DNA of 64,000 nt from an uncultured Eubacteriales bacterium (GTDB lineage: Bacteria; Bacillota_I; Bacilli_A; RF39; UBA660). The stretch is taken from NCBI GenBank assembly GCA_905188025.1, contig CAJJKI010000007.1, forward strand, positions 9,703-73,702. The letters run 5' to 3'. The notes beneath the pieces are model-generated. The model made no database searches. It was not told the DNA's origin and worked only from the letters and a program-made list of their open reading frames with translations. Shown here piece after piece: positions 36,264 to 37,842 of the stretch (position 1 is the first letter of the stretch; the number at the start of each line of letters is the position of its first letter). Both the position numbers and the translations under genes were made by a program.

Positions 36264-37842
36264 ATGAAATATGATATAGAAGCTTTAAAGAGAAAAATGC
36301 TTGTTAAATATCCTTTCTTTGGTAGTGTAGTCGCAAGTGTTGATTATAAAGAAAATACAGGAATACCAACTGCAGGTACTGATGGAAGACAATATATTAT
36401 AATCCTGAGTATTTAGAGGGATTAAATCGTGATGAACAGACTTTTATATTTGCTCATGAGGTATGTCATATTGCATTTAACCATATATTAAGGAGTGAAG
36501 GTAAAGATCCAGAATTATGGAATATTGCAACTGATGGAGTAATTAATCAATTTTTAAAAAAAGATGGTTTGAAATTAGCACCAGGTGGTGTTGATATGGC
36601 AGATGCAATTAATTATGATGCTGAGCAATTATATGAAAAATTATTGCAAGAAAAAAAACAAAATCAAAAACAGCAACAAAGTCAAAGTGATTCTAGTAGT
36701 GAGGAATCTAGTCAAGGACAGACTCAAAAAGGAGATTCTGAGCTTCAAAGTCAATCTGGAAGTCAAGAGCAAGGAAATAACCAAAATGAACAACAAAGTT
36801 CTAGCGAAAGCCAAGGCGATAGTGATGAACAGAAAAGTGATTCTAAAAATCAAAGTAGTTCTGGAAGTAATAGTTCTCAAAATCAAAATCAAAATGTGCA
36901 ACAGAATCAACAAAGTAGCGGAGACAGTTCAGATTCTGAGCAACAAGAAGAACAAGATTCTTCAAAAAAAGATGTGGGACATGATACCCATAGTTTATGG
37001 GAAGAGGCAGTAAAAAAACATAAAGAAGAGCAGAGTAAATCTTCTGACAAAAAGGAAAGTCTATTAGATAAAATATTAAATAAACAAAAGGATAAACAAG
37101 AAAAAGAACAGAGTGAACTTGAAAAAAACAAGAAGAATTAGAAGAAATGGGCGAGAAAGATGCTTTTAAGAAAAATCTTGAAGATAAAAAAAAGCAACTT
37201 GAAGAATTAAAAGAAGCAATTTCTAAACAAGCATCACAAGCAGGAAATTCAACAAATAGAGGTATTAGAACAGTTAATGATATTGGTACTGCAAAACCAA
37301 TAGTTGATTGGCGATATATTTTGAGAGAAGCAATTAAATATGATATAGATTGGTCATATAAAAATGCTACATTAGAAGATGGAATTGTTACTGCTAATTT
37401 AGAAGAACAGCCAATGCCAGAAACTGAAATTGTTCTTGATACAAGTGGTTCAATAAATGAAGTATTATTAAAGAACTTTTTAAGAGAATGTAAAAATATA
37501 TTACAACATACTAAATTAAAAGTAGGATGTTTTGATACAGAATTTTATGGATTTAATGAAATTAGAACAGAAGAAGATATAGAAAATATGCGATTTGAAG
37601 GTGGTGGAGGAACTGACTTTGATGTCGCTGTAGGTGCTTTTTCAAGAAGAGTTGAAAATAAAATAATATTTACTGATGGAGAAGCTTCAATGCCAGATAT
37701 GTCAATTGATGCAATATGGATAGTATTTGGTGGTGAAAAAATTAATCCAAAAGGTGGTAAAGTAATTCACATTACACCAGAACAATTAGATAGGTTATAT
37801 TCATACGAAATTGAAAGTGAAACTAAAGGTAGATCAAGATAA
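36264..37842 (+). pseudogene. HExxH putative metallopeptidase N-domain + S/Q/E-rich linker + vWA-like domain (DUF2201-type MoxR partner), disrupted by two -1 frameshifts
   Basis: Segment 36264..36416 (frame 0) reads MKYD..PFFGS..TAGTDGRQYI. Frame 2 continues from 36383 with YNPEYLEGL..FAHEVCHIAFNH (HExxH), then a ~180 aa low-complexity linker ending at 37141. Frame 1 (37147..37842) carries the MIDAS-like VLDTSGSIN..GGGGTDF..FTDGE vWA fold. An RBS gagg precedes 36264. Confidence 0.7.

What the first reader, a model, noticed from the sequence alone, without database searches (positions are those of the whole stretch)
36264..37842. Two -1 frameshifts at A/T homopolymers split the HExxH-vWA gene into three reading frames
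Seen in sequence: the N-terminal 51 codons (frame 0) stop at 36414-36416. The HExxH domain continues in frame 2 from 36383; the join ...TDGRQYI|YNPEYLEGL requires one extra T in tatatt(t)ataat near 36396-36400. Frame 2 ends at 37141 and the vWA domain continues in frame 1 from 37147; an A7 run (gaaaaaaac at 37121-37129) needs to be A8 to fuse ELEK|KQEELEEMGEK. Both lesions are single-base deletions in homopolymeric tracts. Three explanations are possible: (i) homopolymer sequencing errors, (ii) genuine inactivation of a possibly toxic defence component, or (iii) slipped-strand phase variation or programmed frameshifting at the A run. No other long gene in the window shows such lesions, which argues somewhat against generally poor sequence quality.
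Basis: seen in the sequence. Interest (0 to 1): 0.7.

Follow-up and report, generated by a model that had tools for sequence, protein, structure and literature searches.

The report
Real, decaying zincin-vWA pseudogene
The split gene is a genuine pseudogene, broken by two one-base deletions that recur in many independent gut metagenome assemblies, and it sits in a cassette that has also lost its reverse transcriptase and a key ATPase residue, so this is ordinary gene decay and not a sequencing error or a programmed frameshift.

Summary
The three-frame split at 36264-37842 is real. Adding two bases gives a 526-aa DUF2201_N (HExxH) + DUF2201 (vWA-like) protein that matches more than 100 intact single-ORF homologues.

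It is GGA-AAG to GGA-AG (A3 to A2, 36386-36387), not a T-run.
- **Not an artefact.** Both lesions occur together in all 19 contigs that carry the 50-aa fragment wherever the rest of the gene is on the contig. These contigs come from several accession series and differently named assemblies.
- **Further decay.** Two sublineages each add another frameshift: 36465delG inside HEVCH, and 37094delA.
- **Neutral drift.** Within the lineage the gene has 9 nonsynonymous to 2 synonymous changes (omega about 1). The neighbouring Fic gene has 1 to 6.
- **Context.** In relatives the gene closes a diversity-generating retroelement cassette: Avd, TR, RT, a VR-bearing AAA+ ATPase, a 130-aa gene, then DUF2201. 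The window keeps only about 43 nt of the RT gene. Its ATPase carries Walker B D416N.

The verdict is fixed pseudogenisation of a dead cassette. Programmed frameshifting and phase variation are unlikely. Interest is low.

The parts
36264..36386 (+). Segment 1 of the pseudogene: codons 1-41 (MKYDIE...PTAGTDG) in the frame of the ATG. Read on without repair, this frame stops at TAG 36414-36416 and gives the 50-aa ORF.
36386..36387 (+). Lesion 1: a 1-nt deletion. The window has GGAAGAC (AA) where intact alleles have GGAAAGAC or GGAAAAAC. It lies in the strand TDG-KTIYYN just upstream of the HExxH helix.
36387..37128 (+). Segment 2, shifted by -1 relative to segment 1. It holds KTIYYNPEY, the HEVCH zinc-binding motif (36455-36469), the S/Q/N/E-rich low-complexity linker and a coiled K/E-rich region. 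There is no ATG, GTG or TTG start before TTG 36569, so the HExxH part cannot be translated on its own.
37122..37128 (+). Lesion 2: an A7 tract that is A8 in the closest intact alleles. In the local frame it reads ga A_AAA_AAC, which has the form of a -1 slippery heptamer. The frame then stops at TAG 37139-37141.
37129..37842 (+). Segment 3, shifted by a further -1. It holds the vWA-like DUF2201 domain with a MIDAS-like DTSGS motif at 37438-37452. Gene callers report it as a 231-aa ORF from ATG 37147.
33909..35861 (+). Partner gene of 650 aa. The N-terminal domain carries the DGR variable repeat (34169-34248). The C-terminal half is a divergent AAA_5/MoxR-like ATPase (phrog_1297, 5e-47). Walker B reads D416N (AAT at 35154-35156), whereas D is invariant in 14 homologues.
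35861..36253 (+). Conserved 130-aa middle gene of the three-gene core. It is intact, identical in every lineage contig that covers it, and of unknown function.
33832..33874 (+). Degenerate remnant of the last ~43 nt of the DGR reverse-transcriptase gene. Homology to the intact cassettes starts here. Avd, TR and the rest of the RT gene are absent.

Best explanation
The gene is a true pseudogene, fixed in one lineage of an uncultured low-GC gut Firmicute.

Its ancestor encoded a single ~530-aa protein: an N-terminal zincin-type HExxH domain (DUF2201_N), a low-complexity linker, and a C-terminal vWA-like domain (DUF2201). This protein is the third gene of a conserved triad. The other two are a VR-bearing AAA+ ATPase and a 130-aa protein. 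In close relatives the triad is served by a diversity-generating retroelement (Avd, TR, RT).

In the window's lineage the cassette has died in several steps whose order is unknown:
1. Avd, TR and RT were deleted.
2. The ATPase acquired Walker B D416N.
3. The DUF2201 gene lost one A from GGA-AAG.
4. The DUF2201 gene lost one A from an A8 tract. That tract had itself been created by a synonymous AAG-to-AAA change, and contracting it by replication slippage is my inference.

Translation from the ATG now stops after 50 codons, before the HExxH motif. Since then the gene has drifted neutrally and picked up further frameshifts in sublineages.

Shown directly: the lesions, their recurrence across assemblies, the extra frameshifts, the N:S ratio, the absence of the RT and the D416N change. 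Inferred: that the protein is not made, and that the triad works as a MoxR/vWA-type system.
For: - **One gene in three frames.**
- **Intact elsewhere.** The gene is a single frame in about 50 species-representative genomes and in more than 100 metagenomic proteins.
- **Exact lesions against the closest intact DNA.** That DNA is 94-97% identical.
- **Recurrence.** The same 50 + 181/198/207 + 231-aa structure is called in the contigs found through the ATPase, the 231-aa ORF and the 50-aa ORF. These come from SRR275387xx/390xx, ERZ28662140, ERZ286170-193xx, ERZ272xxxxx, ERR10101657, ERR11503925 and SRR18468138, and their names show different assembly styles (k99_, k119_, scaffold_, Logan).
- **Additional independent frameshifts.** 36465delG lies in the Cys codon of HEVCH in two samples, and 37094delA is in L081.
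- **Neutral polymorphism.** Within the lineage the pseudogene has 9 N: 2 S (omega 1.03) against 1 N: 6 S (omega 0.04) in the adjacent Fic gene, Fisher p = 0.013.
- **Cassette context.** Relatives carry Avd, TR, RT and A-biased TR/VR mismatches. The window has no RT or TR in its 64 kb. The Walker B D-to-N change is specific to this lineage.
Against: - No read-level or expression data were available, so low-level rescue cannot be measured.
- The A7 tract in its local frame reads A_AAA_AAC, the form of a -1 slippery heptamer.
- The 231-aa vWA ORF starts with an ATG 5 nt after the preceding stop and keeps its MIDAS-like motif, so a stand-alone fragment could in principle be made.
- The polymorphism counts are small. 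Five of the 11 substitutions come from one short contig end (L080).
- The ATPase and the 130-aa gene remain open reading frames.
- Several species keep an intact triad without an RT, so loss of the RT alone does not force decay.
Confidence: 0.85

Rival explanations
1. Sequencing or assembly artefact: the true sequence has A3 and A8 and encodes one intact ORF.
For: Lesion 2 lies in a 7-8 nt homopolymer, a context prone to error on some platforms.
Against: - Identical lesions occur in 19 contigs from many runs, with contig names that show different assembly styles.
- The window is 100% identical over 33000-39700 to one independent Logan contig and over 33250-39700 to a second.
- Lesion 1 is not in a homopolymer.
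- No split genes were found among five other adjacent ORF pairs.
Confidence: 0.02
2. Programmed recoding: -1 ribosomal frameshifting or transcriptional slippage at the A tract, plus some bypass at site 1, yields a full-length protein.
For: In the local frame the tract reads A_AAA_AAC, which has the form X_XXY_YYZ. The zero-frame stop lies 10 nt downstream.
Against: - Homologues encode the protein in one frame. The tract is GAAAAGAAAC in 23 of 29 motif matches, so the site is not conserved.
- There is no significant structure downstream (z = -0.88, and the nearest stem starts about 32 nt away).
- Site 1 has no slippery heptamer between 36383 and 36413.
- Sublineages tolerate further frameshifts, one of them inside HExxH.
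- Omega is about 1.
- From general knowledge, A7 is shorter than the tracts usually needed for efficient transcriptional slippage.
Confidence: 0.03
3. Phase variation: the A8/A7 tract is a reversible on/off switch for the gene.
For: A8 and A7 both exist among closely related alleles, and A8 arose only in this sub-clade. Homopolymer tracts of this length can slip.
Against: - All 19 contigs of the broken lineage have A7, and all four A8 loci are intact at site 1. No tract heterogeneity is seen within a lineage.
- Lesion 1 (A3 to A2) is not readily reversible and keeps the gene off whatever the tract length.
- The other signs of decay (extra frameshifts, D416N, loss of the RT) point to permanent loss.
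Confidence: 0.05
4. Gene fission with a retained function: the 231-aa vWA-like fragment, and perhaps the middle fragment, is still expressed and useful.
For: - ATG 37147 lies 5 nt after the upstream stop.
- The DTSGS MIDAS-like motif is intact in the window.
- The 231-aa sequence is identical in 14 contigs.
Against: - Substitutions within segment 3 across the lineage are 6 N: 2 S. One of them is G-to-S inside DTSGS in L080.
- There is no Shine-Dalgarno-like GGAGG upstream of 37147.
- The middle ORF has no start codon before the HExxH motif.
- The partner ATPase carries a Walker B mutation.
Confidence: 0.07

Closest known systems
Pfam DUF2201_N (PF13203, putative metallopeptidase) + DUF2201 (PF09967, vWA-like) proteins; PHROG phrog_1314
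   Same: The repaired protein has both domains above the gathering score, the HExxH motif and a MIDAS-like DxSxS motif. It is adjacent to an AAA+ ATPase (phrog_1297), as in the phage-encoded pairs.
   Different: Here the gene is broken by two frameshifts. No member of the family has a demonstrated function that I could find: only 4 papers mention DUF2201, none functional.
MoxR-vWA (VMAP) ternary conflict systems linked to diversity-generating retroelements (Kaur et al. 2020, PMC7159879; Dore et al. 2024, PMC10907252)
   Same: [quoted passage not shown]
   Different: - In the published systems the variable domain is usually fused to the vWA protein. Here the VR lies in the N-terminal domain of the ATPase protein.
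- Here the peptidase is a zincin fused to the vWA domain.
- No VMAP domain was identified.
- The hosts are gut Bacilli-like MAGs, not multicellular bacteria.
- The AAA_5 match is below threshold.
- In the window the system is dead.
Homopolymer-tract frameshift pseudogenes and contingency loci
   Same: A one-base contraction of an A8 tract inactivates a gene. The tract was created by a synonymous change.
   Different: There is no evidence of reversible switching. A second, non-repeat lesion and later frameshifts show permanent loss.
Minimal gluzincin MJ1213 (PDB 4qhf; from memory this is 'selecase')
   Same: A weak profile match (E 0.0045) covers the strand plus the HExxH helix, residues 32-74.
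   Different: Only about 40 residues match, and this is not a family-level relationship. The AlphaFold model was too poor (pLDDT 48.8) to test the fold.

Membership tests
DUF2201_N / DUF2201 (zincin + vWA-like) protein family | Match to PF13203 and PF09967 above the gathering score | tested here: met
   Repaired protein: 119.3 bits (cut-off 23.2) and 50.8 bits (cut-off 26.4).
DUF2201_N / DUF2201 (zincin + vWA-like) protein family | Single uninterrupted ORF encoding both domains | tested here: not met
   Three frames in the window. Homologues are single-frame.
DUF2201_N / DUF2201 (zincin + vWA-like) protein family | HExxH motif and MIDAS-like DxSxS motif present | tested here: met
   HEVCH at 36455-36469 and DTSGS at 37438-37452, both invariant in the alignments.
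Programmed -1 ribosomal frameshift site | Slippery heptamer X_XXY_YYZ in the zero frame | tested here: inconclusive
   Site 2 has A_AAA_AAC. Site 1 has none between 36383 and 36413.
Programmed -1 ribosomal frameshift site | Downstream stimulatory structure 5-9 nt after the heptamer | tested here: not met
   The fold of 37130-37220 has z = -0.88 and the only stem starts about 32 nt downstream.
Programmed -1 ribosomal frameshift site | The frameshift arrangement is conserved among homologues | tested here: not met
   All other species encode one frame, and the tract is interrupted (GAAAAGAAAC) in 23 of 29 motif matches.
Phase-variable contingency locus | Tract length varies among otherwise near-identical strains | tested here: not met
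   A7 is present in every contig of the broken lineage, and A8 only in alleles 3-6% divergent.
Phase-variable contingency locus | Restoring the tract length restores the ORF | tested here: not met
   Lesion 1 upstream still truncates the product at codon 50.
Diversity-generating retroelement (context of the gene) | RT, Avd, and a TR/VR pair with mismatches at TR adenines | tested here: not met
   Met in relatives L015 and L018: RT phrog_1423 at 3e-106, Avd phrog_3206 at 8e-14, and 80-100 nt TR/VR pairs with almost all mismatches at TR adenines. In the window only the VR and about 43 nt of the RT gene remain.
MoxR-type AAA+ / vWA pair | AAA_5-type ATPase with intact Walker A and Walker B, adjacent to a vWA protein | tested here: inconclusive
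   - Walker A GPSSEGKS is present.
- The AAA_5 match is below threshold (E 0.01-0.025) in three orthologues.
- phrog_1297 'ATPase' matches at 5e-47.
- Walker B D is replaced by N in the window.

The most novel reading that the evidence does not exclude
The broken gene is the zincin-vWA component of a so far undescribed variant of the DGR-linked MoxR/vWA 'antigen-sensor' conflict systems, found in Bacilli-like gut bacteria. In this variant the hypervariable domain is fused to the N-terminus of the ATPase. The window's lineage would then record the stepwise loss of such a system: RT deletion, a Walker B mutation, and frameshifts that began at a newly created A8 hot spot which may first have acted as an off-switch.
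Probability: 0.3. Interest if true: 0.45.

Novelty: already known. Interest (0 to 1): 0.2.

Why it matters
The frameshifts are biological, not technical, and they mark a dead gene, not a recoding or switching device. Annotators should therefore label 36264-37842 as one pseudogene and not as three hypothetical ORFs.

The wider context is mildly useful. It gives a dated example of how a DGR-associated ATPase/zincin-vWA cassette decays. It also points to intact relatives (for example L015-L020) as the loci worth studying if one wants to understand this triad.

Tried and rejected
- **Phage and plasmid DNA search.** megablast of 33900-38000 found no match in either collection.
- **JGI metagenome scans.** Patterns that would match either the broken or the intact state of each lesion found nothing, so there was no independent JGI test for single-lesion intermediates.
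- **Apparent ATPase frameshifts in L011 and L014.** They turned out to be runs of N in scaffolds, not frameshifts. L014 has the normal Walker B D.
- **Structure prediction.** The AlphaFold model of intact homologue P0041, built with a 24-sequence alignment, had mean pLDDT 48.8. It was too poor to use, so I ran no fold search.
- **PDB sequence searches.** The ATPase gave nothing meaningful. The DUF2201 profile gave only a weak HExxH-region hit to MJ1213.
- **Defence and naming libraries.** PADLOC and NCBIfam gave no hit for the DUF2201 protein, the ATPase or the 130-aa protein.
I rejected TDGRQYI|YNPEY with an added T, because homologues read KTIYYN, which the second frame already encodes from 36386.
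- **Net -3 rescue.** I considered whether the third deletion in sublineages could restore the reading frame. It cannot, because stop codons intervene (36414-36416 after lesion 1).

Full report
**1. The observation**

The sequence at 36264-37842 reads in three successive frames.
- The ATG at 36264 opens a frame that stops at TAG 36414-36416, giving 50 codons.
- A second frame, shifted by -1, is open from 36383 to TAG 37139-37141 and contains FAHEVCHIAFNH.
- A third frame, shifted by a further -1, runs to TAA 37840-37842.

Inserting two bases gives a 526-aa protein. It matches Pfam DUF2201_N (putative metallopeptidase, 3e-34) and DUF2201 (vWA-like, 2e-13), both well above their gathering scores. 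It also aligns end to end with more than 100 intact proteins of 466-606 aa, at 80-91% identity in the alignment. The split is therefore real and is not a chance arrangement of ORFs.

**2. Where the lesions are**

The window has G-A7-C at 37121-37129. The closest intact alleles (L014-L017) have A8 and read SELEKKQEEL.

Lesion 1 is misplaced in the finding. All homologues read TDG-(K/E/Q)-T-I-Y-Y-N. The window's second frame already encodes KTIYYN directly after the Gly codon. The DNA alignment shows GATGGAAAGACG or GATGGAAAAACA in intact alleles against GATGG-AAGACA in the window. One A was therefore lost from a run of three at 36386-36387. Only one of the two lesions lies in a real homopolymer tract.

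**3. Not an artefact**

I looked up three exact products: the 650-aa neighbour, the 231-aa C-terminal ORF and the 50-aa N-terminal ORF. These returned 10, 14 and 19 contigs respectively. Every locus returned whose sequence covers the gene has the same 50 + 181/198/207 + 231-aa structure.

The contigs come from several accession series: SRR27538727/781/846 and SRR27539038, ERZ28662140, ERZ28617041/618812/619340, ERZ27260691/298364, ERR10101657, ERR11503925 and SRR18468138. Their names show different assembly styles (k99_, k119_, scaffold_, Logan). One Logan contig is 100% identical to the window over 33000-39700 and a second over 33250-39700. Other contigs are 99.3-99.8% identical in the gene and carry a 51-nt in-frame linker indel. 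A shared sequencing error is not credible.

**4. Evidence of decay, not recoding**

- **More frameshifts.** Two sublineages have each gained another one. 36465delG lies inside the Cys codon of HEVCH, in contigs from ERZ28662140 and ERZ27260691. 37094delA is in SRR18468138.
- **Neutral polymorphism.** Within the lineage the gene has 9 nonsynonymous and 2 synonymous substitutions. That gives omega 1.03 against a neutral expectation of 4.4 to 1. The adjacent Fic gene has 1 to 6 (omega 0.04), and Fisher's p is 0.013. The numbers are small, and five of the changes come from one contig end.
- **The A tract is not conserved.** In 23 of 29 motif matches among the other loci the site is GAA-AAG-AAA-CAA. 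The uninterrupted A8 exists only in the alleles closest to the window. A synonymous AAG-to-AAA change therefore created the tract that later contracted.
- **A slippery motif without support.** In its local frame the A7 reads A_AAA_AAC, which has the form of a -1 slippery heptamer. But no significant structure follows it (z = -0.88). Site 1 has no slippery motif. The HExxH segment has no start codon of its own before TTG 36569.
- **Intact elsewhere.** The gene is a single frame in about 50 species-representative genomes.

**5. Context**

In intact relatives the gene is the last member of a conserved cassette:
- a 194-aa Avd (phrog_3206 8e-14; NCBIfam DivGenRetAVD, weak);
- a ~375-nt spacer holding a template repeat;
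- a reverse transcriptase (phrog_1423, 3e-106);
- the 642-650-aa protein;
- the 130-aa protein;
- the DUF2201 protein.

The spacer repeat and a stretch at codons ~87-113 of the 650-aa gene form an 80-100-nt pair. Almost all of their mismatches fall at adenines of the spacer copy, which is the signature of a diversity-generating retroelement. The C-terminal half of the 650-aa protein is a divergent AAA+ ATPase. It matches phrog_1297 at 5e-47, gives below-threshold AAA_5 hits in three orthologues, and has Walker A GPSSEGKS.

In the window, homology to these cassettes begins at 33832, inside the last ~43 nt of the RT gene. No RT, Avd or TR is present anywhere in the 64 kb. In addition the window's ATPase has Walker B VFLNEITNA, whereas all 14 homologues examined have VF[LF]DEITNA, including the closest ones. 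The change is GAT to AAT at 35154 and is shared by the whole broken lineage. The frameshifted gene is therefore one of several degraded parts of a dead cassette. Loss of the RT alone is not sufficient to explain the decay, because several species keep an intact triad without an RT (L032, L036, L040, L047, L048, L051, L056).

**6. Host**

The cassette occurs in MAGs labelled uncultured Bacilli, Tenericutes or Clostridium, in Coprobacillus sp. CAG:605 and in Candidatus Faecisoma. The window has about 28% G+C. It carries sporulation genes (germination protease, SpoIIP) and a polysaccharide-synthesis locus around the cassette. I did not identify the species.

**7. Comparison with what is known**

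DGR-diversified sensors coupled to MoxR-like ATPases, vWA proteins and peptidases have been described by Kaur et al. 2020 (PMC7159879) and Dore et al. 2024 (PMC10907252). CLec-AAA ATPase fusions are noted there as common DGR targets in CPR bacteria.

The cassette here is a variant of that theme. The variable region is at the N-terminus of the ATPase protein, the zincin is fused to the vWA domain, and no VMAP domain was found. I did not establish membership of that family. The AAA_5 match is below threshold, and the fold of the variable domain was not tested.

The DUF2201 family has no functional literature that I could find. PADLOC and NCBIfam have no model for it. A profile of the family hits only the HExxH region of MJ1213 in the PDB, at E 0.0045.

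**8. Verdict**

This is a real, fixed pseudogene produced by two one-base deletions, and it is still decaying. Options (i) and (iii) are not. The novelty of the finding itself is low, since this is ordinary gene decay. The intact relatives of the cassette are the more interesting objects. I give confidence 0.85 to the pseudogene explanation. The residual goes to a retained vWA fragment (0.07), phase variation (0.05), recoding (0.03) and artefact (0.02).

Noticed in passing
L015:1626-7452 and L018:1595-7629; window 33832-37842 is the remnant: Intact relatives carry a complete DGR (Avd, TR, RT). Its variable repeat lies in the N-terminal domain (codons ~87-113) of an AAA+ ATPase protein. A 130-aa gene and the zincin-vWA gene follow. 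The three-gene core is widespread in gut Bacilli-like MAGs, with or without the DGR, and sometimes with two tandem ATPase genes.
   Followed up: partly
window 35154-35156: The Walker B aspartate of the ATPase is replaced by asparagine (VFLNEITNA). D is invariant in 14 homologues. The change is shared by the whole frameshifted lineage.
   Followed up: yes
window 34136-34970 compared with L007, L010 and L011: Members of the same frameshifted lineage differ by a 0.8-kb tract of 28 SNPs. Twelve of these are almost all nonsynonymous changes inside the variable repeat (34182-34240). Either the tract was imported by recombination, or the VR was diversified after the lineage formed.
   Followed up: partly
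window 33051-33725 and 38356-39633: The 224-aa ORF just upstream of the cassette is 28% identical over about 200 aa to the C-terminal half of the 425-aa Fic-domain protein downstream. That Fic protein hits the PADLOC candidate defence family PDC-S72 at 1e-51. A 92-aa ORF (37953-38231) precedes it.
   Followed up: no
window 36640-36950 (the linker); indel after 36674: The S/Q/N/E-rich low-complexity linker between the zincin and vWA domains varies greatly in length across the family (proteins of 466-606 aa). The window type lacks 51 nt (17 codons, in frame) that other members of the same lineage have.
   Followed up: partly
window 6319-6499 (+): A 6S RNA (RF00013) at 67.6 bits. It is the only Rfam match at gathering score in the window. 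ARAGORN finds no tRNA genes.
   Followed up: no
L028:3914-4266 and L038:3921-4273: In two other species the RT gene of the cassette survives only as fragments in three different frames, while the triad downstream stays intact. DGR loss therefore appears to recur in this family.
   Followed up: no
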